Positions 480 to 61,895 are shown, counted from the stretch's first letter. The stretch: DNA of 64,000 bases from the human T2T-CHM13v2.0 reference genome, Homo sapiens (GCA_009914755.4 CP068257.2:44672001-44736000), one strand, 5' to 3'. Translations and numbers: made by a program. Notes: generated by a model from the letters alone, not told the origin.

Positions 480-1130
480 AAGTTTCTGTGTGCGTGTAAG
501 GTTGTCATAGCCTTTGTGCAAGGTTGCAGTTTTGTGTGTGTGTAAGGTTGTCATAGCCTTTGTGCAAGGTTGCAGTTTCGTGTGTGTGTGTAAGGTTGTC
601 ATAGCCTTTGTGCAAGGTTGCAGTTTCGTGTGTGTGTGTAAGGTTGTCATAGCCTTTGTGCACGGTTGCAGTTTTGTGTGTGTGTAAGGTTGTCATAGCC
701 TTTGTGCAAGGTTGCAGTTTCGTGTGTGTGTGTAAGGTTGTCATAGGCTTTGTGCAAGGTTGCAGTTTTGTGTGTGTGTAAGGTTGTCATAGCCTTTGTG
801 CAAGGTTGCAGTTTCGTGTGTGCGTGTAAGGTTGTCATAGCCTTTGTGCAAGGTTGCAGTTTCGTGTGTGTGTGTAAGGTTGTCATAGGCTTTGTGCAAG
901 GTTGCAGTTTCGTGTGTGTAAGGTTGTCATAGCCTTTGTGCAAGGTTGCGGTTTTGTATGTGTGTAAGGTTGTCATAGCCTTTGTGCAAGGTTGCAGTTT
1001 TGTGTGTGTGTGTAAGATTGTCATAGGCTTTGTGCAAGGTTGCAGTTTCATGTGTGTGTGTAAGGTTGTCATAGCCTTTGTGCAAGGTTGCAGTTTTGTA
1101 TGTGTGTAAGGTTGTCATAGCCTTTGTTGC
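480..1130. repeat. Minisatellite, about 13 copies of a 46-50 bp unit (taaggttgtcatagcctttgtgcaaggttgcagttt(c/t)g(tg)n); the length varies with the internal (GT)n
   Basis: Read directly from the sequence: periodicity of 46-50 bp from about 497 to 1110. It produces the overlapping repeat ORFs 468..1142. Confidence 0.9.
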
Positions 1131-3529: not shown

Positions 3530-6500
3530 TGATTACTATTCTTGATTTAAAGTTAAACTCTAGATTAAATTCCTCCCGTGGTTAGCTTGGCCTGTGCCCG
3601 GGACTGAGTGGGGACAGCCACGCAAGTTAAACTCTAGATTAAATTCCTCCCGCGGTTAGCCTGACCCGTGCCCGGGACTCAGTGGAGTCAGCCACACAAG
3701 TTAAACTCTAGATTAAATTCCTCCCGCGGTTAGCCTGACCCATGCCCGGGACTCAGTGGAGTCAGCCACGCAAGTTAGACTCTAGATTAAATTCCTCCCG
3801 CGGTTAGCCTGACCCATGCCCGGGACTGAGTGGGGACAGCCACACAAGTTAAACTCTAGATTAAATTCCTCCCGCGGTTAGCCTGACCCATGCCCGGGAC
3901 TCAGTGGAGTCAGCCACGCAAGTTAGACTCTAGATTAAATTCCTCCCGCGGTTAGCCTGACCCGTGCCCGGGACTGAGTGGGGACAGCCACGCAAGTTAA
4001 ACTCTAGATTAAATTCCTCCCGCGGTTAGCCTGACCCGTGCCCGGGACTCAGTGGGGACAGCCACACAAGTTAAACTCTAGATTAAATTCCTCCCGCGGT
4101 TAGCCTGACCCGTGCCCGGAAGTGAGTGGAGTCGGCCACACAAGTTAAACTCTAGATTAAATTCCTCCCGTGGTTAGCCTGACCCATGCCCGGGACTCAG
4201 TGGGGACAGCCACGCAAGTTAAACTCTAGATTAAATTCCTCCCGCGGTTAGCCTGACCCGTGCCCGGGACTCAGTGGGGACAGCCACACAAGTTAAACTC
4301 TAGATTAAATTCCTCCCGCGGTTAGCCTGACCCGTGCCCGGGACTCAGTGGAATCAGCCACACAAGTTAAACTCTAGATTAAATTCCTCCCGCGGTTAGC
4401 CTGACCCATGCCCGGGACTCAGTGGAGTCAGCCACGCAAGTTAGACTCTAGATTAAATTCCTCCCGCGGTTAGCCTGACCCATGCCCGGGACTCAGTGGA
4501 GTCAGCCACACAAGTTAAACTCTAGATTAAATTCCTCCCGCGGTTAGCCTGACCCGTGCCCGGAAGTGAGTGGAGTCAGCCACACAAGTTAAACTCTAGA
4601 TTAAATTCCTCCCGCGGTTAGCCTGACCCGTGCCCGGGACTCAGTGGAGTCAGCCACACAAGTTAAACTCTAGATTAAATTCCTCCCGCGGTTAGCCTGA
4701 CCCATGCCCGGGACTCAGTGGAGTCAGCCACACAAGTTAAACTCTAGATTAAATTCCTCCCGCGGTTAGCCTGACCCGTGCCCGGGACTCAGTGGAGTCA
4801 GCCACACAAGTTAGACTCTAGATTAAATTCCTCCCGCGGTTAGCCTGACCCGTGCCCGGGACTCAGTGGAGTCAGCCACACAAGTTAAACTCTAGATTAA
4901 ATTCCTCCCGCGGTTAGCCTGACCCGTGCCCGGGACTCAGTGGAGTCAGCCACACAAGTTAGACTCTAGATTAAATTCCTCCCGCGGTTAGCCTGACCCG
5001 TGCCCGGGACTCAGTGGAGTCAGCCACACAAGTTAGACTCTAGATTAAATTCCTCCCGCGGTTAGCCTGACCCGTGCCCGGGACTCAGTGGGGACAGCCA
5101 CACAAGTTAAACTCTAGATTAAATTCCTCCCGTGGTTAGCCTGACCCATGCCCGGGACTCAGTGGGGACAGCCACACAAGTTAAACTCTAGATTAAATTC
5201 CTCCCGCGGTTAGCCTGACCCATGCCCGGGACTCAGTGGAGTCAGCCACACAAGTTAGACTCTAGATTAAATTCCTCCCGCGGTTAGCCTGACCCGTGCC
5301 CGGGACTCAGTGGAGTCAGCCACACAAGTTAAACTCTAGATTAAATTCCTCCCGCGGTTAGCCTGACCCGTGCCCGGGACTCAGTGGAGTCAGCCACACA
5401 AGTTAGACTCTAGATTAAATTCCTCCCGCGGTTAGCCTGACCCGTGCCCGGGACTCAGTGGAGTCAGCCACACAAGTTAGACTCTAGATTAAATTCCTCC
5501 CGCGGTTAGCCTGACCCGTGCCCGGGACTCAGTGGGGACAGCCACACAAGTTAGACTCTAGATTAAATTCCTCCCGCGGTTAGCCTGACCCGTGCCCGGG
5601 ACTCAGTGGAGTCAGCCACACAAGTTAAACTCTAGATTAAATTCCTCCCGCGGTTAGCCTGACCCGTGCCCGGGACTCAGTGGGGACAGCCACACAAGTT
5701 AAACTCTAGATTAAATTCCTCCCGCGGTTAGCCTGACCCGTGCCCGGGACTCAGTGGGGACAGCCACACAAGTTAAACTCTAGATTAAATTCCTCCCGCG
5801 GTTAGCCTGACCCATGCCCGGGACTCAGTGGGGACAGCCACACAAGTTAGACTCTAGATTAAATTCCTCCCGCGGTTAGCCTGACCCGTGCCCGGGACTC
5901 AGTGGAGTCAGCCACACAAGTTAAACTCTAGATTAAATTCCTCCCGCGGTTAGCCTGACCCATGCCCGGGACTCAGTGGAGTCAGCCACGCAAGTTAGAC
6001 TCTAGATTAAATTCCTCCCGCGGTTAGCCTGACCCGTGCCCGGGACTCAGTGGAGTCAGCCACACAAGTTAGACTCTAGATTAAATTCCTCCCGCGGTTA
6101 GCCTGACCCATGCCCGGGACTCAGTGGAGTCAGCCACGCAAGTTAGACTCTAGATTAAATTCCTCCCGCGGTTAGCCTGACCCGTGCCCGGGACTCAGTG
6201 GAGTCAGCCACACAAGTTAAACTCTAGATTAAATTCCTCCCGCGGTTAGCCTGACCCGTGCCCGGGACTCAGTGGGGACAGCCACACAAGTTAAACTCTA
6301 GATTAAATTCCTCCCGCGGTTAGCCTGACCCATGCCCGGGACTCAGTGGAGTCAGCCACGCAAGTTAGACTCTAGATTAAATTCCTCCCGCGGTTAGCCT
6401 GACCCGTGCCCGGGACTCAGTGGAGTCAGCCACACAAGTTAAACTCTAGATTAAATTCCTCCCGCGGTTAGCCTGACCCATGCCCGGGACTCAGTGGAGT

Positions 6501-8062
6501 CAGCCACACAAGTTAAACTCTAGATTAAATTCCTCCCGCGGTTAGCCTGACCCGTGCCCGGGACTCAGTGGAGTCAGCCACACAAGTTAGACTCTAGATT
6601 AAATTCCTCCCGCGGTTAGCCTGACCCATGCCCGGGACTCAGTGGAGTCAGCCACACAAGTTAGACTCTAGATTAAATTCCTCCCGCGGTTAGCCTGACC
6701 CATGCCCGGGACTCAGTGGAGTCAGCCACGCAAGTTAGACTCTAGATTAAATTCCTCCCGCGGTTAGCCTGACCCGTGCCCGGGACTCAGTGGAGTCAGC
6801 CACACAAGTTAAACTCTAGATTAAATTCCTCCCGCGGTTAGCCTGACCCGTGCCCGGGACTCAGTGGGGACAGCCACGCAAGTTAGACTCTAGATTAAAT
6901 TCCTCCCGCGGTTAGCCTGACCCGTGCCCGGGACTCAGTGGGGACAGCCACGCAAGTTAAACTCTAGATTAAATTCCTCCCGCGGTTAGCCTGACCCGTG
7001 CCCGGGACTCAGTGGAGTCAGCCACACAAGTTAGACTCTAGATTAAATTCCTCCCGCGGTTAGCCTGACCCGTGCCCGGGACTCAGTGGAGTCAGCCACA
7101 CAAGTTAGACTCTAGATTAAATTCCTCCCGCGGTTAGCCTGACCCATGCCCGGGACTCAGTGGGGACAGCCACGCAAGTTAGACTCTAGATTAAATTCCT
7201 CCCGCGGTTAGCCTGACCCGTGCCCGGGACTCAGTGGGGACAGCCACGCAAGTTAAACTCTAGATTAAATTCCTCCCGCGGTTAGCCTGACCCATGCCCG
7301 GGACTCAGTGGGGACAGCCACACAAGTTAAACTCTAGATTAAATTCCTCCCGCGGTTAGCCTGACCCGTGCCCGGGACTCAGTGGAGTCAGCCACGCAAG
7401 TTAGACTCTAGATTAAATTCCTCCCGCGGTTAGCCTGACCCGTGCCCGGGACTCAGTGGGGACAGCCACACAAGTTAGACTCTAGATTAAATTCCTCCCG
7501 CGGTTAGCCTGACCCGTGCCCGGGACTCAGTGGAGTCAGCCACGCAAGTTAGACTCTAGATTAAATTCCTCCCGCGGTTAGCCTGACCCGTGCCCGGGAC
7601 TCAGTGGGGACAGCCACGCAAGTTAGACTCTAGATTAAATTCCTCCCGCGGTTAGCCTGACCCGTGCCCGGGACTCAGTGGAGTCAGCCACGCAAGTTAG
7701 ACTCTAGATTAAATTCCTCCCGCGGTTAGCCTGACCCGTGCCCCGGACTCAGTGGGGACAGCCACGCAAGTTAAACTCTAGATTAAATTCCTCCCGTGGT
7801 TAGCCTGACCCGTGCCCGGGACTCAGTGGGGACAGCCACGCAAGTTAGACTCTAGATTAAATTCCTCCCGCGGTTAGCCTGACCCGTGCCCGGGACTCAG
7901 TGGAGTCAGCCACGCAAGTTAGACTCTAGATTAAATTCCTCCCGCGGTTAGCCTGACCCGTGCCCGGAAGTGAGTGGAGTCGGCCACGCAAGTTAGACTC
8001 TAGATTAAATTCCTCCCGCGGTTAGCCTGACCCATGCCCGGGACTCGGTGGAATCAGCCACC
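3530..8062. repeat. Large CpG-dense minisatellite (VNTR): about 61 tandem copies of a 74-bp unit (caagtt(a/g)aactctagattaaattcctcccgcggttagcctgaccc(g/a)tgcccgggactcagtgg(agt/gga)cagccac(a/g))
   Basis: Measured period of 74 bp (tagatt at 3561 and 3635). It runs uninterrupted for about 4.5 kb inside a YBEY intron. Each unit has 4-5 CpGs and a few recurring variant positions. Confidence 0.95.
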
Positions 8063-15380: not shown

Positions 15381-15605
<225 letters not shown>

Positions 15606-15785
15606 CTAACTGGGGCTGGATCCCATGTGATAGGCAGGATGGCAGGGTCTAAGCATCCTCCCAGAGGAGGCTCCTCCCCCGCCCCAAATTGTGCAACCCA
15701 TTCCTCATCTGGGCTGGGACTCGATGGGGATGGGAGCTTCACAGCCAGACTGTAGACCTGAGCCAGGAATGCCCTTTCAGAGCTA

Positions 15786-16004
<219 letters not shown>

Positions 16005-16057
16005 CTATTTGTTAAAGTGATAGAGCATTATAGGACCAGAGAACACGTGTGTCTGTA

Positions 16058-16335
16058 CACTGTGCAGGTCCCCGGGGCAGGCTCTGAGTCCGTCTGCACA
16101 CGGTGCGGGTCCCCGGGGCGCGCCCTGAGCCCGTCTGCACACGGTGCGGGTCCCCGGGGCGCGCCCTGAGCCCGTCTGCACACGGTGCGGGTCCCCGGGG
16201 CGCGCCCTGAGCCCGTCTGCACACGGTGCGGGTCCCCGGGGCGCGCCCTGAGCCCGTCTGCACACGGTGCGGGTCCCCGGGGCGCGCCCTGAGCCCGTCT
16301 GTACACGGTGCGGGTCCCCGGGGCGCGCCCTGAGT
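16058..16335. repeat. GC-rich minisatellite, about 6.7 copies of a 41-bp unit (cggtgcgggtccccggggcgcgccctgagcccgtctgcaca), ending directly in a 5'-truncated Alu
   Basis: Measured period of 41 bp (cggtgcggg at 16101 and 16142). The last unit runs into tctctactaaaaatacaaaaattagcc of an Alu at about 16335. Confidence 0.9.
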
Positions 16336-16700
16336 CTCTACTAAAAATACAAAAATTAGCCAGGCGTGGTGGTTCAAGCCTGTAATCCCAGCTCCTTGGG
16401 AGGCTGAGGCAGGAGAATCGCTTGAACTCAAGAGGCAGAGCTTGCGGTGAGCCAAGATCGCGCCACTGTACTCCAGCCTGGGCAACCAGGGCGAAACTCC
16501 GTCTCAAGAAAAAAAAAAAATTAAAACATCTAAGCCAGTTGTAGTGGTGCACGCCTGTAGTCCCAGCTACTCAGGAGGCTGAGGCAGGAGGATCACTTGA
16601 GCCCAGGAGTTCGAGGCTGTAGTGAGCCATGATCATGCCCCTGCACTCTAGCCTGGGTAACAGAGCAAGATACTATCTCCCCAGAAAATAAATAATAAAA
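16334..16700 (+). mobile_element. Alu fragments (16334-16520, 5'-truncated and abutting the 41-bp minisatellite; 16536-16700 partial)
   Basis: tctctactaaaaatacaaaaattagccaggcgtggtgg...gtctcaagaaaaaaaaaa; ccagttgtagtggtgcacgcctgtagtcccagctactcaggaggctgagg... Confidence 0.8.
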
Positions 16701-16910
16701 TATCTGTTCATCTACAGACACCATGAAGAGAGTGAAAAGGCAACCACAAGAAGGATGGAACACTCAAAATGCACATATCAAAAAAGGGCTCATTACAGAA
16801 ATTATAAAGAATCCCTAGAAACCAATAAGGGAGGCAGGCAACCTGAAAGAAAAATGGGCAAATTACTTAAATGGACACTTTACAAAAAAGGATATTCAAG
16901 TAGCCAATAA

Positions 16911-17014
16911 GGCCAGGCACGGTGGCTCATGCCTGTGATGCTCGCACTTTGGGAGACCGAGACAGGAGAAGTCCTTGAGACCAGGAGCTGACACCAGTCA
17001 TAGCAAGACCTCAT

Positions 17015-17022
<8 letters not shown>
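16911..17022 (+). mobile_element. Alu monomer (FLAM-like fragment)
   Basis: ggccaggcacggtggctcatgcctgtgatgctcgcactttgggagaccgagacaggag... Confidence 0.6.
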
Positions 17023-17049
<27 letters not shown>

Positions 17050-17052
17050 ATA

Positions 17053-17104
<52 letters not shown>
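17023..17104. repeat. Compound microsatellite (CA)12 (TA)8 (T)36 between Alu elements
   Basis: Read directly. Confidence 0.9.
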
Positions 17105-17105
<1 letters not shown>

Positions 17106-17664
17106 GAGACAGAGTCTTGCTCTGTCGCCGAGGCTGGAGTGCAGTGGTGCGATCTCGACTCACTGCAAGCTCCGCCTCCTGGGTTCACGCCATTCTCCTG
17201 CCTCAGCCTCCTGAGTAGCTGGGACTACAGGTGCCCGCCACTGCGCCCGGCTAATTTTTTGTATTTTTTGTAGAGATGGGGTTTCACCGTGTTAGCCAGG
17301 ATGGTCTCGATCTCCTGACCTCATGATCCACCTGCCTTGGCTTCCCAAAGTGCTGGTTTTTTTTTTTTTTTTTTTTTTTTGAGACGGAGTCTCACTGTGT
17401 CGCCCAGGCTGGAGTGCAGTGGTGCAATCTTGGCTCACTGCAAGCTCTGCCTCCCAGGTTCATGCCATTCTCCCACCTTAGCCTCCTGAGTAGCTGGGAC
17501 TACAAGCACCCGCCACCACGCCCGGCTAATTTTGTTTTTGTATTTTTAGTAGAGATGGGGTTTCACTGTGTTAGCCAGGATGGTCTGGAACTCCTGACCT
17601 CATGATCTGCCCGCCTCGGCCTCCCAAAGTGATGGGATTACAGGCGTGAGCCACTGCGCCTGCC
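17085..17664 (-). mobile_element. Two Alu elements (17085-17356 and 17357-17664)
   Basis: Alu consensus in minus orientation, each with a 5' poly-T. Confidence 0.85.
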
Positions 17665-17692
17665 CTACACAAAATTTTTCAAATTAGTTGAC

Positions 17693-17832
17693 TGTGCCTG
17701 TAGTCCCAGCTACTTGGGAGGCTGAGGTGGGAGGAGTGCTTGAGCCCAGAAGTTGAGGCTGCAGCGAGGTATGATTGCACCACTGCACTCCAGCCTGGGC
17801 AATGGAGTGAGACCCTGTCTCTTAGAAAAAAA
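17693..17832 (+). mobile_element. Alu right-arm fragment
   Basis: gcctgtagtcccagctacttgggaggctgaggtgggagga...gagaccctgtctcttagaaaaaaaaaa. Confidence 0.75.
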
Positions 17833-17839
17833 AAAACCT

Positions 17840-18966
<1,127 letters not shown>

Positions 18967-18994
18967 TAAATTAACTTTTAAAAAAAGAATCTTG

Positions 18995-19420
<426 letters not shown>

Positions 19421-19561
19421 GACTCATGAGATGGGAATATAATCCTGGATTATCTGGGCAAGCCCAGTGCAATCACAGGGTCCTTAGAAAGTGGTGAGAT
19501 AAAATGACTGTCAATCTAGATTTGAATATGCAGCAAAACTTGCATTTAAAAATAAAGGTAG

Positions 19562-19883
<322 letters not shown>

Positions 19884-19934
19884 TCAGTATCTACTTTCCT
19901 GCAAATGTTTTTTATTTCCATTTATTTATGTATT

Positions 19935-20646
<712 letters not shown>

Positions 20647-20682
20647 TTAACCACTGATTTTAAATGCTGCATTTTCTCTCAT

Positions 20683-20822
20683 ATGGCATACAAGCATAGG
20701 CACACACTCACCCATTCACACACACCCCTACCTCGGTATGCTTTTTAGAACCTATGGCATACAAGCATAGGCACACACACACCCACACACACACCCCTAC
20801 CTCAGTGTGCTTTTTAGCACCT
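20683..20822. repeat. Tandem duplication of a unit of about 62 bp containing (CA)n cores (tatggcatacaagcataggcacacac...ccctacctc.gt.tgctttttag)
   Basis: Two near-identical adjacent copies, read directly. Confidence 0.7.
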
Positions 20823-21296
20823 AACAGACTATCACTAAACTTCATCTGGAAAAATCGACAGGTAATAAGGAAAGACAGGACTACCCTTCTTTATGATGGC
20901 ACAAGCTATGCTCTCTGCCACTCCAGGGGCTCCTCATATGGATCACAATAGGAAAGGTATCCCCTGGATGTGGGTTACATGGCCGTCCTGGGCCAGATCT
21001 GGCTTGGATTGCAATATATGATAGAGCTACAGTAATTAACCAAGTCAGCACAGGGGTTGGGATAGGCAGGTCACTGGGACAGATTTGAGGACAGCTGTCA
21101 GGTGATTCAGCCATTCTACACACGTCTGCCCCTAGACTACCAATTCCATTAGTCATTAGGGCAATGCAAATCAAAGCCACAATCAACCACCACTGCATCC
21201 TGTTAAAATGGATAAAATGAGAAAGACTGACCATACCACATGTTGCCAAGGTTGTAAATAACTAGAACTCACAAACATTACTAGTGAGAATATTAA

Positions 21297-21495
<199 letters not shown>

Positions 21496-21515
21496 TTAAC
21501 TTTTAAGAAACTGCT

Positions 21516-22817
<1,302 letters not shown>

Positions 22818-23049
22818 TCAGTTTCAGATATTCTAAGCAACAGAAAATGGACTAAGACATCCACCAACAGGTGAATGCATAACAAACTGATATATTCACA
22901 CAATGCAATACTACTCAGCAATTAGAAGGAACCATTTATTGATACACCCAACGACAGTGATGAATCTTAAAACAGTCATGCTGAGAGAAGCCATACAAAA
23001 AAAGAGTACATACTGTGTAGACCATTTCTACAAAAATCTAGAAAATGCA

Positions 23050-23350
23050 GGCCAGGCATGGTGGCCCACGCCTATAATCCCAGCACTTTGGGAGGCTGAG
23101 GTGGGTGGATCATGAGGTCAGGAGTTCAAGACCAGCCTGGCCAAGATGGTGAAACCCCGTCTCTATTAAAAATACAAAAAATTAGCAGGGCGTGGTGGCG
23201 GGTACCTGTAATCCCCAGCTACTCCAGAGGCTGAGGCAGAGAATTGCTTAAACCTGGAGGGGCAGAGGTTGCAGTGAGCCGAGATCACGCCACTGCACTC
23301 CAGCCTAGGCGACAGGCAAGACTCTGTCTCAAAAATAAAATAAAATAAAA
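23050..23350 (+). mobile_element. Alu (SINE) with an (AAAAT)n tail
   Basis: ggccaggcatggtggcccacgcctataatcccagcactttgggaggctgaggtgggtgg... Confidence 0.85.
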
Positions 23351-23519
23351 TAAAATAATCTAGAAAATTCAAACTACTACATAGTGACGGAAAGCTGCTC
23401 AGCAGTTGCATGGGGGTGTAGGAGGAGGGATTAAAAAGAAACACGAGGAAACTTTGGAGGTGATGGATATGCTCAGTCTTGATTGTAGTGATATAAGTAT
23501 ATGTTATATGTATATGTTA

Positions 23520-23845
<326 letters not shown>

Positions 23846-23861
23846 AAAACTTGTCAAATTG

Positions 23862-24175
23862 GGCCGGGCACAGTGGCAAACGCCTATAATCCCAGCACTT
23901 TGAGAGGCTGAGGTGGGCGGATCACCTGAGGTTGGGAGTTCAAGACCAGCCTGGCCAAAATGGCGAAAACCCACCTCTACTGAAAATACAAAAATTAGCA
24001 AAGCATGGTGGTGCAGGCCTACAGTTCCAGCCACTTGGGAGGCTGAGGCAGGAGAAGTCGCTTGAACCCAGGAGGCAGAGGTTGCAATGAGCTGAGATCA
24101 TGCCATTGTATTCCAGCCTGGGCAACAAAGTAAGACACTCTCTCTCTCTCTCTCTAAATAAATAAATAAATAAAT
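23862..24175 (+). mobile_element. Alu (SINE) with a (CT)n and (AAAT)n tail
   Basis: gggccgggcacagtggcaaacgcctataatcccagcactttgagaggctgagg... Confidence 0.85.
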
Positions 24176-24207
24176 TTTAAAAATCAAGTATTTAAAAGCT
24201 ATTATTA

Positions 24208-24504
24208 TTATTATTATTTTTGAGACAGAGTCTCACTCTGTCGCCCAGGATGGAGTAAAGTTGTGCATTCTTGGCTCACACTGCAACCTCCGCCTCCCAG
24301 GTTCAAGCAATTTCTCCTGCCTCAGCCTCCCAAGTAGCTGGGATTACAGGCATCCATCACCATGGTGAGCTGGTTTTTGTATTTTTAGTAGAGATGGGGT
24401 TTCACCCTGTGGGCCAGGCTGGTCTCGAACTCTTGACCTCAGGTAATCCACCCGCCTCAGCCTCCCAGTGTTGGGATTACAAGCGTGAGCCACCGAGCCG
24501 GGCC
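24208..24504 (-). mobile_element. Alu (SINE)
   Basis: tttttgagacagagtctcactctgtcgcccaggatggagtaaagttgtgc... gagccaccgagccgggcc. Confidence 0.85.
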
Positions 24505-24743
24505 CTAAAAATTATTTTAAAAGAAGCATCTTAATAATGGTTTTTGAATGGATGATGATTGGATGAGTTGGAATTGGAGCCCAATTATTTTACCTCCTAG
24601 TTATCTTTCTTATACCTCTTGTTTCCTTCCCTGTGAGATATCATTTATATAAGGATTTCTTAAAGTTAAAATTATTTTCATGTTGAACAGCCAAAAGCTG
24701 GCCCTAAGTGACTGTCCTGCTTCCAGGAACATTTTCCCTTTCA

Positions 24744-24902
<159 letters not shown>

Positions 24903-24959
24903 CTAGGAACAGCCAGGTGATTAGCTATCTGCATATGTCCTTGAAGAAAGTGTCTCCAG

Positions 24960-25460
24960 TATCTACCACCCATCCATCCACCCACCCATCCAACCAACCA
25001 ACCAACCAACCATCCACCCATCCATCCAACCAACCAACCAACCAACCAACCATCCACCCATCCATCCAACCAACCATCCACCCACTCATCCATCCACCCA
25101 TCCATCCACCCACCCATCCATCCAACCAGCCAACCAACCATTCATCCACCCACCCATCCACCCATCCAACCAACCACCCACCCATCTATCCACCTACCCA
25201 TCCATCCAACCAGCCAACCATCCAACCAGCCAACCAACCATTCATCCACCCACCCATCCATCCAACCAACCAACCATCCACCCACCCATCCATCCACCCA
25301 CCCACCCACCCATCCATCCACCCATCCACCCATCCACCCACCCATCCATCCACCCATCCACCCATCCACCTACCCAACCAACCAACCAACCAACCACCCA
25401 CCCATCCATCCACCCACCCATCCATCCAACCAGCCAACCATCTACCTACACATCCATTCA
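24960..25460. repeat. Complex tetranucleotide-type repeat (CCAT/CCAA/CCAC/CCAG)n of about 500 bp; G-rich (GGATGG/GGTTGG)n on the minus (C21orf58-transcribed) strand
   Basis: ccatccatccacccacccatccaaccaaccaacc..., read directly. It generates the low-complexity ORFs 24848..25489. A degenerate echo lies at about 25890-25912 inside an Alu. Confidence 0.9.
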
Positions 25461-25657
25461 TCCATCCAAGGAGAACTTTAAATGATTAACCCCAGACACT
25501 GAATAAATGGTTGAATGGAAAGGTACTTCAGTCTAGATATCACTTAGGATGTAGTATTTTTAATGTTTCCCACATTTCCTGTCTTTAGCGGGGTGGGCTG
25601 AGGCCTGGTTCCACCAATTCTGCTTTAATAGGAGCAACCAACACTTGGTATGGTGTT

Positions 25658-26003
<346 letters not shown>

Positions 26004-27469
26004 CTGGTCAGTCTTTTTAATTGTAGCCACTTTAATAGAGATGCAGTGGTGGCTCACAGTGGCTTTAATTTGCATTTCCCTAATGACGGATGGTGTTGAG
26101 CATCTGGGGCAGACCCGTGGGTAGGATGGCCGCATCCCAACAGGCGTTCTCAATTCTGTCCCAGTGACCTCTCTATCCCAGCCCCCATAACAACTTGGTT
26201 AATTACTGTCCTCCATCATATACTGTAGTACATATATAGAACACGTCATGAAAATGAACTTTGGTTTCTCCTCTGAGTGAAAATAAATTATAGCCAAATA
26301 TTCGAGCATGAAAGGCCTTCTGTTTTATCCTCTTCTAGCTGTGTGAGGCTGCCTGGCCTTGTCCCTTCTTCCTCAGTTCACAGAAAGGACGGCAGAGACC
26401 AAGAGTTGGCAAACTTTTGCCAAGAGCTACATCGTAAACAGCTTCCAAAGCAGGACACACCGTCAGCTCTTGAGTTGGCCATTGCAGCATGAAAGCAGCT
26501 ACGGACAATGTGGAAACAAATGGGCCTGGCCCAATAAAACTTTATTTATGAACACTAAAATTAGCATTTCATATAATTTTCATATGTTGCAAAATATTAT
26601 TATTGTATTGGCTTTTCCCCAAACATGTAAAAATGTAAAACCATTCTTGGCTTGCAGGTTGTGTGAGAATAGGAGGCAGGCCAGCTCCGGTCTGAAGCTG
26701 TGGTTTGCCCACCCCTGGCACAGACCCATGAGGCTTTCTTAGAGCTGCCGTGCCCGTCCTGGCTGATGGGACCTCCTACCTCAGGGGCTCTGAGTCCAGC
26801 TGCCAGGAAGCTCATCTTAGTGACCCACAGCCCCTGCTCACCCACCTGGTGTCACTGGGGCTGAGAGTGAAACCTGCAGGCATAACTGGCCCTGATGGAT
26901 ACACAGTAAGCATAGATGTGTTTGGGATGAGGAAGATGGGGGGTCCACAGCAATGACCCCCCGTACTCCCTTCTGTCCTGGGAGGAGGTTCCTGGTGCTG
27001 GAAGACAGGAAGGCACAGGCTGGGAATATCCAGAACCTGGTGAAGGCCACCCATCTGCAGAGGAGGGTCTGGGGCAGGTCCTTCGGAGGCTCCCCTTCCC
27101 TCTGTACCCTCCACCATGTGCTGCTGCCAGGGTCCCCTCCCAAAGGGCAAAAGCCTTCCAGGTCATAGACTCTGCTGCCCTGTCTAGAAATTCCCACCTC
27201 AGCCTCTTCTCTTCCACCTTCCCTGCACCCCAGTCACACGAATCCCACCAAAGCCTTGACCTCCGGGCCCCCAGCTTCCATCCCACCTCTGGGTGCCTGG
27301 TTTCCCTCTGATCCATTTTTTGCTTCAGAAAGTCAGAGTTGTTTTCTGCTGCCTGCCACCCAGAAGGCTGAACAGCTGTAGGAAGCTCTCAGAAGTGGAG
27401 CACTATTTACCTTTAACATTCTGCCCTTGACATTGGGGCCTTAAGCATCTCCTGGGCATGATAAAGTTT

Positions 27470-27727
27470 TTTTTTTTTGTTTTTTTTTTTGAGATGGAGT
27501 CTTGTAATCTCCTCTTTCTGGGCTCAAGCGATTCTCCTGCCTCAGCCTCCTGAGTAGCTGGGACTACAGGCATGCACCACCACGCCCAGCTAATTTTTGT
27601 ATTTTTAGTAGAGACAGGATTTCACCAAGTTGCCCAGGCTGGTCTCAAACTCCTGACCTCAGGTGATCCGCCCGCCTCGGCCTCCCAAAGTGCTGGGAGT
27701 AGAGATGTGAGCCACCGCACCCGGCCA
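27470..27727 (-). mobile_element. Alu (SINE) with an internal deletion
   Basis: ttttttttttgagatggagtcttgtaatctcctctttctgggctcaagcgattctcctgcc... Confidence 0.8.
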
Positions 27728-27932
27728 GTGATAAAGTTCTGAGGAGTTGACACACTTCCCCAAATTCAGGGCCGCCCGCTGAGCTCTCCTGATACTTCTG
27801 CCCCTAATGCAACATTTAAGGCCAGGGCTGGGGTTTGGGAGACAGAGCTGGGCCCCAGCCTTCCTCTGTGATGAGGGGTAAGCAGTCCGGGGAGGCCCAG
27901 GCAGTGCCCAGGCAGGCAGCTGGCCCCCTTCA

Positions 27933-28376
<444 letters not shown>

Positions 28377-36399: not shown

Positions 36400-38800
36400 T
36401 TAAGGACGGCCTGCGCGAGGTCACCGGCCCTGTCTTGGTTTTTTGCCACTTCGCTCCAGTTAGTTTCCCAAGTTCCACCTACGCGCGCGCCAGCTGAGAA
36501 AACGCCCACCCCGGCGGTCCCGCCACAGGTCACAGGCGGTGCGGACCCCGGGACTGTGTCCGGGCTTCGGTGTCCAGAGAGCTCCAAGACACCCAAACCT
36601 TCCGTGGTTTCCACCTCTGCAAGCTTATGTTCCGCTGAGCTCAAGCTGAGGGACGACGACCTCATGCGACGTCAGTTTCCCCCTGGGACCACGAACCCAC
36701 GGCCCCATTTCTCTTCTGTCTACTAAAAACCTTTTCTTTTCTTTTTTTTTTGAGACCTAAGACATCAGTGAGACACACGAGCAGACACGGGCTCGGTCGG
36801 GAAAGGCGGGAGCTCCAAGCGGCGGGGCCTGCAGGTCCAGGCGGTTCGCGGGCTTTCTGACCGCATTCGGCCGAGTTCTTCTCTGAAGACCCAGGACCCC
36901 CGGCCGAGGGGGCGCATTCGGCGGGCTGGTGGCGTAGGATTTTGTTTCGGGTTCCCAGGGTCCCGGCAAGGGTGAGGGAGCCCTTGCGGATCCCCTGAGA
37001 TCCACCTCAGCAGCCTCCTCCGTGGTAGGCCTCAACTTCCCGCGGCGGCCCACAGCCAACGACTAATGCCTGAGCGGGAGAAAACGGCCTGGCCCTGTCC
37101 GGGTGGTTGCTGAGCACCGTTCGGCGCCGCCCGCGCCTGCAGGGAGCCCGGCCCGCTGTCCTGGTGGACACAAAGCCCAGGGGCCGCCCGCGCGGGACCA
37201 GCAGCGCGAACTTTTTGCCGCTCGGCCAGCCTGGCAGGGGATTTTAAAATCGGCCAATCACAGCGGGCGCCAGGCCTCCGCTTTCCGCTTACTGGTCCTG
37301 CCGTAGGAGGCGGGTACGTGAGCGCACCAATCTGTGGCCGGCGAGCGTAAAGGGCGGGGCTCCGCCCAGGCTGCACCGCCCAGAGCGCGCGTGCGCGAGA
37401 CCGGAAACGCAGCCCCCTGATTGGCGGCGCGTGTCGGGGGCGGGGCCGCGGCTGCGTGACAGTTGTCGCGGGGGAGGGCGAGCCCAAGCGCGGGGGAGGG
37501 AGTGTAAATAGAGCGAAGGCTGCTCTGTGTCAGCCCCGTCACCGCCGGGCGGCCCGCGCGGAGTCTGAGGGAGATGGAAGTTGAGCAAGAGCAGCGGCGC
37601 AGAAAGGTGGAGGCCGGGAGGACGAAGGTAAACATTAGGGGCTTCTTCTCTAGCTGCTCTGGCGTGAAGTCCTAAGGGCGGCTCCGGTGCCCGCCACCGC
37701 CCCCTGCCAGGAGAGGACGCGGTCCGGCGGAAGCCGCCGCGGAGGTCTCGCTTTTTCCCGCCGGCTCCGCTGGAAGCCGCCTCCTGGCCGCCGCCATCTT
37801 GAATCCGCCGCTCTCCGCCAGGTCCCGCCCCCGCCGCGGCCACAGCCAATCAGCGGCCGGGACGCGCGGCGCCTCTCGGGCGGGCCGGGGCGGGGCTGCG
37901 CCGCGCCTGCGTCGGGGGGTGGGTGGGGCGCGGGCTGGGCGCGGTGCACGCCGGGGCGGGGTGTGGCTGCAGGGCGGGGCTACAGGGGCGTGGCGTGGCT
38001 GCACGGAGGGGGTGGGGCGCGGCAGGCGCTGGACCCCAGGCTGGATCTTCCAGTGGCTCCCGCGTCCTCCGGGACCGGGTGGCCTGGGGCGGGCGGCCGG
38101 TATTCGGGTGGCTGCTTGGTCTAGGGCCAGTTTCCTGCGCGGCCGGGGCCGGGGGCGTGGCGCGGGTGGCCTGCAGCGCCTCCCCAGGGTGCGCCTTCGC
38201 CTCGTCCGTCGGAGATGCTTTCCCCGCGCGTTTCTCGCGGCGTTGCAGTCCTTACTGTGTGAAAGGCCCCCGCGGCGCTCCCGGCCGCCGTCTTCTTCCC
38301 GCGCCCTTGGGCTCGCGTCCTGCCCGTCCGGGCCTGGCGTAGCGCTGCCGGGAACGCACGCGGCGCTGGCGCCGGGCGCCTTCAAGGGACGCGCTCCCGT
38401 CTTTCTCCCGCCCCGGGTTTCTCCGTGAAAAAGCGCTCGGTTTGATGGCCACTGTCCTAGGTTTCGTGGGAATAAAGCGCGCAGAGCCCATGACTCGGGG
38501 GCAGGAGAAAGGGAGTCCCGAAAGCGCGAGGCGGAACCGCGGGAGCAGGCCGGCCTCTGCGAGGTGCGCGCGGCTCCCCCCCAGGATGTTCTGGCTGGGG
38601 TGCTGGGGAAGAGCGGGGCTCCCGGGCACGGCGGACAGGGGACGCGGGGCTAGGCCGGGGAAGGGCTGAGGCGGGCAGGAGGGGAAGGGGAGCCCGGAGC
38701 CTGCAGGGAGCTGCGAACAGGAGCAGAGCTCCCAGGAGGGTGGAGGGGGGAGGGAGGGACAAGACGCCGCCTGTAGGGCGACGCAGGCCGCAGACCAGGT
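36400..38800. promoter_or_regulatory. CpG island spanning the head-to-head C21orf58 (minus) and PCNT (plus) 5' ends; probable bidirectional TATA-less promoter extending into PCNT intron 1
   Basis: Very high GC and CpG density. CCAAT boxes at about 37253-37257 and 37846-37850, and an inverted CCAAT (ATTGG) at about 37421-37425. GC boxes (GGGCGGGG) at about 37350, 37437, 37878, 37955 and 37972. The PCNT ATG is at 37574. The long ORFs here are GC-rich artefacts. Confidence 0.8.
37574..37627 (+). CDS. PCNT: PCNT (pericentrin) exon 1 coding part (MEVEQEQRRRKVEAGRTK)
   Basis: ATG at 37574 and donor AAG|gtaaac at 37628. The N-terminus matches my memory of pericentrin. In frame with exon 2. Confidence 0.9.
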
Positions 38801-47751: not shown

Positions 47752-48162
47752 CCGGAGGACTGTGATGGAGAGAAGAGAGAGGACTTGGAACAGCTGCAGC
47801 AGAAGCAAGTCAATGACCATCCTCCAGAGCAGTGTGGGATGTTCACAGTCAGTGACCACCCACCAGAACAGCATGGGATGTTCACAGTCGGTGACCACCC
47901 ACCAGAACAGCGTGGGATGTTCACAGTCAGTGACCACCCACCAGAACAGCATGGGATGTTCACAGTCAGTGACCACCCACCAGAACAGCATGGGATGTTC
48001 ACAGTCAGTGACCACCCACCAGAACAGCGTGGGATGTTCACAATCAGTGACCACCAACCGGAACAGCGTGGGATGTTCACAGTCAGTGACCACACACCAG
48101 AACAGCGTGGGATCTTCACAATCAGTGACCACCCAGCAGAACAGCGTGGGATGTTCACAAAG
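47752..48162 (+). CDS. PCNT: PCNT exon 3 (PEDCDGEKREDLEQLQQKQVN followed by nine 13-aa DHPPEQxGMFTVS repeats ending ...GMFTK)
   Basis: Acceptor ccccttcttag|CCG and donor AAG|gtattc. 411 nt, phase 0. It contains the 39-bp coding tandem repeat. Confidence 0.9.
47815..48162 (+). repeat. PCNT: Coding minisatellite in PCNT exon 3: 39-bp unit, 8 full copies plus one 36-bp copy, encoding the 13-aa repeat DHPPEQ(C/H/R)GMFT(V/I)(S/G)
   Basis: Direct reading gives a period of exactly 39 bp. The copies differ at a few positions and the repeat ends at the splice donor. Confidence 0.9.
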
Positions 48163-61645: not shown

Positions 61646-61895
61646 TTAGGCCTTGCGTGCAGAGGCTCGTCTGTTTCGGGGTGGGTGGTCCTTGTGCAGA
61701 GGCTGGTCTGTTTCAGGGTAGGTGGTCCTCTCGCTTTGTGCAGATGCAGGTCTGTTTTGGGGTGGATGGTCCCTGTGCAGAGGCTGGTCTGTTTCAGGGT
61801 GGGTTGTCCCTGTGCAGAGGCTGGTCTGTTTCAGGGTGGGTGGTCCTCGTGTGCAGATGGCAGTCTGTTTTGTGGTGGGTGGTCCTTGCTCACTT
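61646..61895. repeat. Tandem repeat of about 6 copies of a 38-42 bp unit (gtgcagaggctggtctgtttcagggtgggtggtcc(t/c)(t/c)gt) in PCNT intron 6
   Basis: Read directly; the units are imperfect, with the variant gtgcagatgcaggtctgttttggggtgg. Confidence 0.8.

What the first reader, a model, noticed from the sequence alone, without database searches (positions are those of the whole stretch)
24903..25460. A 500-nt G-rich (GGATGG/GGTTGG/GGGTGG)n tract in the C21orf58 pre-mRNA, ending 58 nt upstream of a splice acceptor
The (CCAT/CCAA/CCAC)n array on the plus strand is transcribed from the minus strand as a long run of GGNUGG motifs. These are classic G-quadruplex and hnRNP H/F (G-run) binding material.

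The array is separated by only 58 nt from the 3' splice site of the exon at 24791-24902 (VPQPP...SIKE). That position is where intronic G-runs act as splicing enhancers or silencers. Tetranucleotide arrays of this kind are also frequently length-polymorphic.
Basis: partly seen in the sequence, partly recalled or inferred. Interest (0 to 1): 0.5.

Follow-up and report, generated by a model that had tools for sequence, protein, structure and literature searches.

The report
Ancient variable G-rich intronic tetranucleotide repeat
A 504-base tetranucleotide repeat sits about 60 bases upstream of a conserved C21orf58 exon; it has stayed at that spot since before primates and carnivores split but varies 40-fold in length, so it is most likely an ordinary, fast-evolving repeat that could at most fine-tune splicing.

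Summary
Window 24966-25469 holds 126 CCAN units (NTGG on the transcribed minus strand) in one unbroken register. It ends 63 nt upstream of the acceptor of a 112-nt exon (24791-24902). Homologues are named 'C21orf58 homolog' and carry DUF4587, which confirms the gene.

New here: the array lies at the orthologous site, with homologous flanks, in orangutan (1411 nt), mouse lemur (1116), lynx (195) and wolverine (36). Mouse has a decayed remnant of about 113 nt; a fish has none. The end nearest the exon always stops 59-74 nt from the acceptor, just upstream of a branch-point-like CTAAT.

The exon peptide is present in 128 of 129 homologue proteins, including species with little or no array. The array is therefore not needed for exon recognition.

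'Classic G-quadruplex material' is overstated. Only 2 canonical motifs occur, 85 of 119 G-runs are GG only, and mean G4Hunter is 1.29. There are 34 GGG triplets, 15 of them within 300 nt of the acceptor, so hnRNP H/F binding is plausible. I could not test binding, exon skipping or human length polymorphism.

Verdict: an ancient, still-active compound microsatellite. A splicing role is possible but unshown. Interest is low to moderate.

The parts
24966..25469 (-). Compound tetranucleotide array. On the pre-mRNA strand it is 126 NTGG units (ATGG 43, GTGG 35, TTGG 34, others 14). It is 56% G with 4 C, and GC skew is about +0.96 on the sense strand.
   Evidence: TRF; in-phase unit count; motif count against shuffles; composition profile.
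25274..25366 (-). GGG-richest core of the array. It contains the only two canonical quadruplex motifs: 25297-25311 (GGGTGGGTGGGTGGG) and 25321-25343. A second G4Hunter region of at least 1.5 lies at 25390-25426.
   Evidence: G4Hunter and regular-expression scan. ViennaRNA with G4 terms predicts three 3-layer quadruplexes, in and beside this part.
24903..24965 (-). 63-nt spacer between the array and the exon. It holds a branch-point-like CTAAT (predicted A at 24921, position -19), a short interrupted polypyrimidine tract, and the acceptor AG (24904-24903).
   Evidence: Sequence. The alignment of six mammals shows gCTAATCAyCTGGCT conserved in primates and carnivores. The branch point is inferred from the consensus and was not mapped.
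24791..24902 (-). C21orf58 exon 'D', 112 nt. It encodes [37 protein letters not shown] plus the first base of a split codon, and forms part of the DUF4587 region.
   Evidence: Translation; tblastn of homologues; conserved as far as fish.
24785..24790 (-). Consensus donor GTAAGT of exon D.
   Evidence: Sequence.
28065..28229 (-). Upstream exon 'C' (EQHLLDEL...RIILPT). The intron that carries the array is 24903-28064 (3162 nt).
   Evidence: Sequence and splice sites; tblastn; intron length.
15867..15958 (-). Downstream exon 'E' (completes codon D, then [14 protein letters not shown]...). The intron D-E is 15959-24790.

Best explanation
The tract is an ancient, still-active compound tetranucleotide microsatellite, (NTGG)n on the sense strand of C21orf58 intron C-D.

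**How it evolves.** It arose before primates and carnivores diverged. It has since grown, shrunk and homogenised by replication slippage and by duplication or loss of larger in-phase blocks. That explains a perfect 4-nt register alongside a 40-fold length range between species.

**Why the near edge is fixed.** The exon-proximal edge is pinned about 60 nt from the acceptor. This is probably because expansion into the branch-point and polypyrimidine region would be selected against (inferred).

**Function.** The array is not required for recognition of the adjacent exon. As RNA it is a C-free, weakly structured G/U-rich tract. It would passively attract G-run binding proteins such as hnRNP H/F and could form a few quadruplexes in its GGG-rich core. 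Any effect on splicing is a modest, length-dependent side effect and not a conserved function.

**Shown:** anatomy, orthology, length lability, dispensability for exon inclusion across species. **Inferred:** slippage and unequal exchange as the mechanism, selection at the proximal edge, protein binding.
For: - There are 126 units in one register with no indel. The orangutan array (1411 nt) and the mouse-lemur array (1116 nt) also each keep a single register.
- Both flanks align between human, orangutan, mouse lemur, lynx and wolverine, so the site is orthologous.
- Array lengths are 504, 1411, 1116, 195 and 36 nt, with a decayed remnant of about 113 nt in Mus caroli and none in a fish whose intron is 258 nt.
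- Between human and orangutan the first 19 and last 7 units are identical. The interior differs by block duplications.
- The proximal edge lies 59-74 nt from the exon in all six mammals.
- The exon D peptide is present in 128 of 129 homologue proteins, including species without a real array.
- The window holds at least five other large tandem arrays, so tandem repeats are common in this region.
- 28.65% of human microsatellites are shared with at least one non-primate species and 5.98% with at least three. Most are judged to be kept by chance (PMC2839350).
- No paper links C21orf58 with a tandem repeat. The gene is absent from the supplements of an HNRNPH splicing study.
Against: - Persistence in at least three non-primate mammals puts the array in the rarer class of conserved microsatellites (about 6%).
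- The sense strand is always the G-rich one, and C is almost excluded (4 of 504; 20 of 1411 in orangutan).
- The polypyrimidine tract is weakest in human and orangutan (longest pyrimidine run 4, against 6-7 in the other mammals and 15 in the fish), and these two have the most G-rich arrays (56% G). That is what G-run 'buffering' of a weak site would predict. It rests on only six mammals.
- No human expression, CLIP or allele data could be consulted, so a modulatory function is not excluded.
Confidence: 0.6

Rival explanations
1. The array is a length-tunable intronic splicing enhancer (or silencer). Its many GGG triplets within about 300 nt of the acceptor recruit hnRNP H/F cooperatively, possibly through RNA quadruplexes in the GGG-rich core. 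That would help define a 3' splice site with a weak, G-interrupted polypyrimidine tract. Because exon D is 112 nt, failure to include it shifts the frame. Array length would then set the ratio of productive to unproductive mRNA.
For: - 34 GGG runs, 15 of them in the last 300 nt of the intron.
- HNRNPH binds GGG triplets. It is enriched in the introns flanking exons it enhances, and predicted quadruplexes strengthen its binding (PMC13001508).
- The hominoid polypyrimidine tract is interrupted by G, with a longest pyrimidine run of 4.
- The array edge keeps a constant distance from the acceptor in six mammals.
- Repeats near 3' splice sites are known to modulate splicing: CFTR (TG)n with TDP-43 and eNOS (CA)n with hnRNP L, as cited in PMC10078293.
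Against: - The exon is retained and its peptide conserved in fish (no array), mouse (5 GGG in the last 300 nt) and wolverine (7).
- No exon-D-skipped isoform appears among 129 homologue proteins, apart from one doubtful Colobus model.
- C21orf58 is not in the supplements of the HNRNPH study.
- A 40-fold length range argues against a tuned dosage.
- Binding itself was not tested.
Confidence: 0.25
2. The array acts at the DNA or co-transcriptional level. A non-template strand that is 56% G with GC skew of about 0.96 and G clusters favours R-loops and/or quadruplex DNA (with i-motif on the other strand). These would slow RNA polymerase II just before the acceptor, altering co-transcriptional splicing, or would make the site fragile and hypermutable.
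For: - GC skew is -0.91 to -0.96 on the plus strand across the array, at 55-58% GC.
- GGGTGGGTGGGTGGG lies at 25297-25311. From my own knowledge this is a very stable parallel quadruplex sequence.
- Length turnover between species is rapid, which fits an unstable structure-prone tract.
Against: - Only 2 canonical quadruplex motifs in 504 nt, and G4Hunter 1.29 is near the lower threshold.
- No DRIP, G4-ChIP or polymerase-occupancy data could be consulted.
- Instability is equally explained by ordinary microsatellite slippage.
Confidence: 0.1
3. The G-rich array pairs with a C/U-rich element in the downstream intron (window 24540-24580; on the pre-mRNA CUCCAAUUCCAACUCAUCCAAUCAUCAUCCAUUCA). This would loop out exon D and promote its skipping or back-splicing.
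For: Predicted duplex energy is -42.5 kcal/mol. That is the best value within 600 nt downstream of the exon and ranks 26 of 880 windows in the intron.
Against: - The score is only about 2 SD better than the intron mean (-25.8, SD 8.3). Many Alu-derived and C-rich segments score better.
- The element is only partly conserved in mouse lemur and absent in lynx, wolverine and mouse.
- It resembles a LINE-2-type tail as I recall that consensus, which is a lead and not a test.
Confidence: 0.03

Closest known systems
Compound tetranucleotide microsatellites and short-unit VNTRs of the (TGGA)n/(GGAT)n type. One example, from my own knowledge, is the polymorphic TGGA repeat 5' of the human MBP gene.
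   Same: Head-to-tail 4-nt units in one register, mixed unit variants, higher-order blocks, non-coding location, and large length differences between related genomes.
   Different: This array sits at a fixed distance from a splice acceptor and can be traced to the primate-carnivore ancestor. Human allele variation at this locus was not measured.
Repeat-length-dependent splicing modulators (spl-TRs): CFTR intron 8 (TG)n with TDP-43, eNOS intron 13 (CA)n with hnRNP L, and the ABCA7 intronic VNTR (PMC10078293).
   Same: A tandem repeat in the intron close to a 3' splice site, made of a motif that a known class of hnRNP recognises. Skipping of the neighbouring exon would inactivate the product.
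   Different: The CFTR repeat abuts the polypyrimidine tract; this array ends 63 nt upstream, beyond the predicted branch point. No binding protein, polymorphism or splicing effect has been shown here.
Intronic G-run (GGG) splicing enhancers bound by hnRNP H/F, including the cooperative mechanism that depends on RNA quadruplexes (PMC13001508).
   Same: Multiple GGG triplets on the pre-mRNA within 300 nt of the splice site, including two canonical quadruplex motifs.
   Different: Typical elements are a few G-runs, whereas this is 119 G-runs, most of them GG only. G-run content is not conserved in mouse, wolverine or fish, which keep the exon.
G-rich, strongly GC-skewed repeats that form R-loops, such as immunoglobulin switch regions (comparison from my own knowledge).
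   Same: Tandem short G-rich units on the non-template strand, with GC skew near 1.
   Different: This array is 0.5 kb, against several kb for switch regions. There is no evidence of R-loops, and the biological context differs.

Membership tests
Microsatellite / short-unit tandem repeat | Head-to-tail copies of a 1-6 nt unit, far beyond chance | tested here: met
   TRF gives period 4 and 125.8 copies. The CCAN x5 motif matches 89 times against 0 in shuffles.
Microsatellite / short-unit tandem repeat | Length changes occur in whole units, so the register is kept | tested here: met
   A single phase runs across 504 nt in Homo, 1411 nt in Pongo and 1116 nt in Microcebus. Human and orangutan differ by in-phase blocks.
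Microsatellite / short-unit tandem repeat | Length polymorphism among individuals of one species | not testable with these tools
   Scans for human-derived contigs found nothing. The array ORF is not on record. Only between-species variation was shown (36-1411 nt).
hnRNP H/F-dependent intronic G-run splicing element | GGG triplets in the intron within about 300 nt of the regulated splice site | tested here: met
   15 GGG runs in the last 300 nt and 34 in the whole array.
hnRNP H/F-dependent intronic G-run splicing element | Direct binding by hnRNP H/F (CLIP or pull-down) | not testable with these tools
   No CLIP data are accessible.
hnRNP H/F-dependent intronic G-run splicing element | The neighbouring exon is alternatively spliced and responds to hnRNP H/F levels | tested here: inconclusive
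   128 of 129 homologue proteins contain the exon. C21orf58 is absent from the supplements of the HNRNPH titration study, although expression in those cells is unknown. No RNA-seq was available.
hnRNP H/F-dependent intronic G-run splicing element | G-runs conserved wherever the exon is conserved | tested here: not met
   GGG runs in the last 300 nt: Homo 15, Pongo 17, Lynx 17, Microcebus 11, Gulo 7, Mus 5, fish 1. The exon is present in all of them.
G-quadruplex-forming sequence | Four tracts of at least 3 G separated by loops of 1-7 nt | tested here: met
   Met at two places only: 25297-25311 and 25321-25343.
G-quadruplex-forming sequence | High quadruplex propensity along the whole tract (G4Hunter at least 1.5) | tested here: not met
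   Mean is 1.29. 24% of 25-nt windows reach 1.5 and none reach 2.0. 85 of 119 runs are GG only, which are mostly unstable as intramolecular RNA quadruplexes (PMC11602125).
G-quadruplex-forming sequence | Folding demonstrated (K+/Li+ reverse-transcriptase stops, CD, G4 ChIP) | not testable with these tools
   Only an energy model was run: MFE -168.6 kcal/mol with G4 terms against -80.9 without.
Splicing-associated tandem repeat (spl-TR) | Repeat length associated with junction usage in a population | not testable with these tools
   The supplements of PMC10078293 are not held. No paper pairs C21orf58 with 'tandem repeat'.
R-loop-forming sequence | G clusters and strong positive GC skew on the non-template strand over at least 100 nt | tested here: met
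   Sense-strand skew is about +0.91 to +0.96 over about 500 nt at 55-58% GC.
R-loop-forming sequence | RNA:DNA hybrid detected (DRIP) | not testable with these tools
   No such data are accessible.

The most novel reading that the evidence does not exclude
The array is a lineage-specific, length-tunable 'rheostat'. Cooperative hnRNP H/F binding, helped by RNA quadruplexes, to a variable number of G-runs upstream of a weak acceptor would set how often the 112-nt exon D is included. Skipping it shifts the frame, so array length would set the productive output of the cilia-associated and oncogene-candidate gene C21orf58. A three-fold expansion in orangutan relative to human, and probable length alleles within humans, would then be functional regulatory variation.
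Probability: 0.1. Interest if true: 0.5.

Novelty: new member of a known kind. Interest (0 to 1): 0.22.

Why it matters
If the array is neutral, as I think most likely, it is one more hypervariable simple repeat in subtelomeric 21q22.3. Its main practical consequences would be as a marker and as a source of assembly and alignment trouble.

If length does modulate exon D inclusion, it would be a natural example of a repeat-length splicing QTL acting through multivalent G-run recognition. The gene has been proposed as a driver of liver cancer (PMC11022693) and is listed among cilia genes. The large human-orangutan difference would then be a ready-made evolutionary experiment.

The comparative result gives a clean case for studying how splice-signal constraint bounds microsatellite growth. 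The site has been fixed for roughly 90-100 million years (my estimate from established mammalian phylogeny), length varies 40-fold, and the edge nearest the exon is pinned just upstream of the branch point.

Tried and rejected
1. **Human allele lengths.** I scanned metagenome contigs with each unique flank, and prokaryotic genome contigs, looking for human contaminant contigs. All returned 0 hits. An exact look-up of the 190-aa ORF that runs through the array was not on record. Human polymorphism therefore stays untested.
2. **Known RNA families.** A full-window Rfam scan found only two Alu/SRP matches elsewhere.
3. **Reported intron retention in C21orf58** (PMC11446786). The retained intron is chr21:46301714-46301995, which is window 15537-15818. 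It is a different, 282-nt intron and not relevant to the array.
4. **GLI-type CACCC sites in the array.** GACCACCCA with one mismatch or fewer occurs only 3 times in the array. The window total of 33 compares with 22 ± 5 expected and is driven by other repeats. Rejected.
5. **Origin from a LINE-2 3' tail.** I aligned an L2 3' end recalled from memory. The score next to the array was within the shuffle range (24, against a shuffle maximum of 26). Only the separate element at about 24530-24560 matched (28, about 5.8 SD). The consensus is recalled, so this is a lead and not a test. Not supported for the array.
6. **Exon looping by pairing with the downstream intron.** The signal is weak. I kept it as a low-probability rival.
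7. **Orphan CCAN match at 25895-25913.** It lies in an antisense Alu segment and is most simply a chance resemblance.
8. **Additional orthologues.** Look-ups for Tupaia, Pimephales, Callithrix, Elephas and Notamacropus returned 'not on record'. Afrotherian, marsupial and New World monkey states are therefore unknown.

Full report
**1. The observation**

The tract is real and far beyond chance. Tandem Repeats Finder reports window 24966-25469 with period 4, 125.8 copies, and a weaker 40-nt higher-order period.

Read in phase it is 126 tetramers with no insertion or deletion. The units are CCAT 43, CCAC 35, CCAA 34, plus 14 single-base variants. Base counts are C 281, A 161, T 58, G 4. The motif CCANCCANCCANCCANCCA occurs 89 times in the window against 0 in 100 dinucleotide-preserving shuffles, and 88 of those lie in the array. 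No comparable array occurs elsewhere in the window on either strand.

On the minus strand the units are ATGG, GTGG and TTGG.

Three coordinate corrections apply:
- The array proper is 24966-25469, so it runs 9 nt past the stated end.
- Position 24903 is the last intron base, not the start of the array.
- The spacer to the exon is 63 nt by the TRF boundary. It is about 58 nt only if degenerate edge units are counted.

**2. Gene and exon**

Exon 24791-24902 on the minus strand is bounded by AG and GTAAGT. It translates to [37 protein letters not shown].

A query built from this exon and its neighbours retrieved 373 proteins at E ≤ 0.001. The best are named 'C21orf58 homolog', and nearly all carry PF15248/DUF4587. 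The gene assignment is therefore confirmed.

Mapping by tblastn and reading the splice sites gives these minus-strand exons:
- about 31423-31361
- about 28900-28826
- 28229-28065 (exon C)
- 24902-24791 (exon D)
- 15958-15867 (exon E)
- an exon starting at 15536

The intron carrying the array is 24903-28064, 3162 nt long. Exon D is 112 nt and ends in a split codon (G|AC). Skipping it would therefore shift the reading frame and would not remove the peptide cleanly.

The exon D peptide is conserved as far as teleost fish. By inspection it is present in 128 of the 129 homologue proteins fetched, including many predicted isoforms. The exception is a Colobus model with an Alu-like replacement. A transcript-derived protein that is 97% identical to the human query also contains it (P0011).

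**3. Anatomy next to the splice site**

A CTAAT that matches the branch-point consensus yUnAy places the predicted branch A at -19 (window 24921). This is an inference from the consensus. No AG lies between it and the acceptor.

The polypyrimidine tract is short and interrupted by G (cacctggctgttcctag). The longest pyrimidine run is 4 in human and orangutan, 6-7 in lemur, lynx, wolverine and mouse, and 15 in the fish. The donor is a perfect AAG|GTAAGT. The array therefore ends 44 nt upstream of the predicted branch point.

**4. Structure-forming potential**

On the pre-mRNA strand the array is 56% G with only 4 C. Quadruplex measures:
- Mean G4Hunter is 1.29. 65% of 25-nt windows reach 1.2, 24% reach 1.5 and none reach 2.0.
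- There are 34 runs of three or more G and 85 runs of GG only.
- Only two canonical G3N1-7 motifs occur: 25297-25311 (GGGTGGGTGGGTGGG) and 25321-25343.

ViennaRNA gives -80.9 kcal/mol without quadruplex terms and -168.6 with them. It predicts three 3-layer quadruplexes and about ten 2-layer ones. Other 504-nt pieces of the same intron reach -146 to -219 by ordinary pairing.

[quoted passage not shown] 'Classic G-quadruplex material' is therefore true only for the GGG-rich core, about 25274-25366 and 25390-25426.

GC skew across the array is -0.91 to -0.96 on the plus strand at 55-58% GC. The non-template strand is therefore strongly G-skewed, which is a sequence signature of R-loop-prone DNA.

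**5. Comparative evidence (the main new result)**

I fetched orthologous loci for six species:

| Species | Locus | Array length (nt) | Array end to exon (nt) | G in array (%) | GGG runs in last 300 nt of intron |
|---|---|---|---|---|---|
| Homo | window | 504 | 63 | 56 | 15 |
| Pongo pygmaeus | L004 | 1411 | 67 | 56 | 17 |
| Microcebus murinus | L005 | 1116 | 64 | 48 | 11 |
| Lynx canadensis | L001 | 195 | 59 | 53 | 17 |
| Gulo gulo | L002 | 36 | 60 | 53 | 7 |
| Mus caroli | L006 | ~113 (decayed) | 74 | 41 | 5 |
| Scortum barcoo (fish) | L003 | none (intron 258 nt) | n/a | n/a | 1 |

All five mammals other than human have a sense-strand NTGG-type array immediately upstream of the orthologous exon. 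TRF no longer detects the mouse remnant. The fish has no array.

Further points:
- Both flanks align. The exon-proximal spacer, with gCTAATCAyCTGGCT, is conserved in primates and carnivores.
- The distal flank...gggttaatcatttaaagttctcc|TTGGATGGATG, is recognisable in human, orangutan, lemur, wolverine and lynx. In lynx a SINE has been inserted at the junction.
- In every locus this is the only array of its kind.
- The three primate arrays each keep a single 4-nt phase over their whole length.
- Encoded unit by unit, the human and orangutan arrays share their first 19 and last 7 units exactly. The interiors differ by gain or loss of multi-unit blocks such as the recurring ...ATTCTAAGGAAG... block.

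The repeat therefore predates the primate-carnivore split. It has old, stable edges and a rapidly turning-over interior. Its exon-proximal boundary has not moved.

**6. Interpretation**

The simplest reading is a long-lived, still-active compound microsatellite that evolves by slippage and unequal exchange of in-phase blocks. It is prevented from spreading into the branch-point and polypyrimidine region by selection on those signals.

Conservation across mammals is not in itself proof of function. 28.65% of human microsatellites are shared with at least one non-primate species and 5.98% with at least three, and the authors concluded that most are maintained by chance (PMC2839350). The window is also unusually rich in other tandem arrays, as expected for subtelomeric 21q22.3. 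That raises the prior for coincidence.

Exon D is retained, with a strongly conserved peptide, in species with a vestigial array or none. The array is therefore not required for exon definition.

**7. What remains possible**

HNRNPH recognises GGG triplets. It is enriched in the introns flanking exons it enhances, within the 300-nt zone analysed, and it binds more strongly where quadruplexes are predicted (PMC13001508).

Repeats beside 3' splice sites can modulate splicing according to their length. Examples are CFTR (TG)n with TDP-43 and eNOS (CA)n with hnRNP L, as cited in PMC10078293.

The human and orangutan acceptors have the weakest pyrimidine tracts of the mammals examined, together with the most G-rich arrays. 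That fits G-run 'buffering' but rests on six species. A modest, length-dependent influence on the balance between productive and frame-shifted splicing cannot be excluded, and I give it about 25%. A DNA-level effect through R-loops, quadruplex DNA or polymerase slowing gets about 10%.

Pairing with a C/U-rich element 220-250 nt downstream of the exon (24540-24580) is weakly supported. The duplex energy is -42.5 kcal/mol, about 2 SD better than the intron mean, and the element is poorly conserved.

**8. Literature and novelty**

No paper in the searchable library links C21orf58 with a tandem repeat. A six-term search that paired the gene with hnRNP, quadruplex, R-loop and minisatellite terms listed no C21orf58 paper among its ten top results. 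The gene is also absent from the supplements of the HNRNPH study.

The intron retention reported for this gene concerns a different, 282-nt intron at window 15537-15818. That match gives an inferred coordinate offset, which places the array near GRCh38 chr21:46,311,143-46,311,646.

In kind, this is a known class of object: an intronic simple repeat with G-runs near a splice site. The specific comparative history appears undescribed. Human length polymorphism, protein binding and exon skipping could not be tested with the tools available, and the experiments that would decide are listed under next steps.

**9. Verdict**

Interest is low to moderate (0.22).

Noticed in passing
window 3550-8061: A very large minisatellite: a 74-nt unit repeated 61 times (4.5 kb) at 96% identity, with no indels between copies. 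It lies below the mapped C21orf58 exons in coordinate terms. I did not examine its nature or gene context.
   Followed up: no
window 47808-48159 and 61657-61888: Two minisatellites: a 39-nt unit x 9 on the plus strand, and a 37-nt unit x 6. Most of their units carry the nonamer GACCACCCA (the GLI-site consensus), exact in 6 and 3 copies respectively. The motif is on the plus strand in the first and the minus strand in the second. They are probably introns of the neighbouring plus-strand gene.
   Followed up: partly
window 481-1127 and 16051-16334: Further tandem arrays: a 48-nt unit x 13.8 at 92% identity, and a GC-rich 41-nt unit x 6.9 at 96% identity. The second lies in C21orf58 intron D-E, about 90 nt upstream of exon E.
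   Followed up: no
window 24540-24580: A short plus-strand TGAATGGATGATGATTGGATGAGTTGGAATTGG element, 210-250 nt downstream of exon D, is complementary to the array RNA (duplex -42.5 kcal/mol, rank 26 of 880). It resembles a LINE-2-type 3' tail as I recall that consensus. It is only partly conserved in mouse lemur.
   Followed up: partly
window 27930-28355 (minus strand): An ORF starting [22 protein letters not shown]... reads from intronic sequence straight into exon C. The same N-terminus occurs in a Colobus protein model (P0129). It may correspond to the 216-aa 'main isoform' mentioned in PMC11022693, which would imply an internal promoter or a retained intron upstream of the array-bearing intron.
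   Followed up: partly
window 15537-15818: An alternative donor at 15818 gives a 282-nt intron. This matches the differentially retained C21orf58 intron reported in blood cells (chr21:46301714-46301995; PMC11446786 supplements). The main-frame intron E-F is 330 nt (15537-15866).
   Followed up: yes
L001 16846-16975 (Lynx canadensis): A carnivore SINE-like insertion (ggggtgcctgggtggctcagttggtt...) sits exactly at the distal junction of the lynx array. It separates the array from its conserved flank.
   Followed up: no
window 37000-38800: A CpG-rich region dense in quadruplex motifs on the plus strand, with long spurious GC-rich ORFs on both strands. It looks like a bidirectional promoter island between C21orf58 (minus strand) and the next gene on the plus strand.
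   Followed up: no
window 25895-25913: An isolated 19-nt copy of the array motif (CCACCCATCCAACCAACCA) lies 426 nt from the array, inside an antisense Alu. It is most simply a decayed Alu segment that resembles the repeat by chance.
   Followed up: partly
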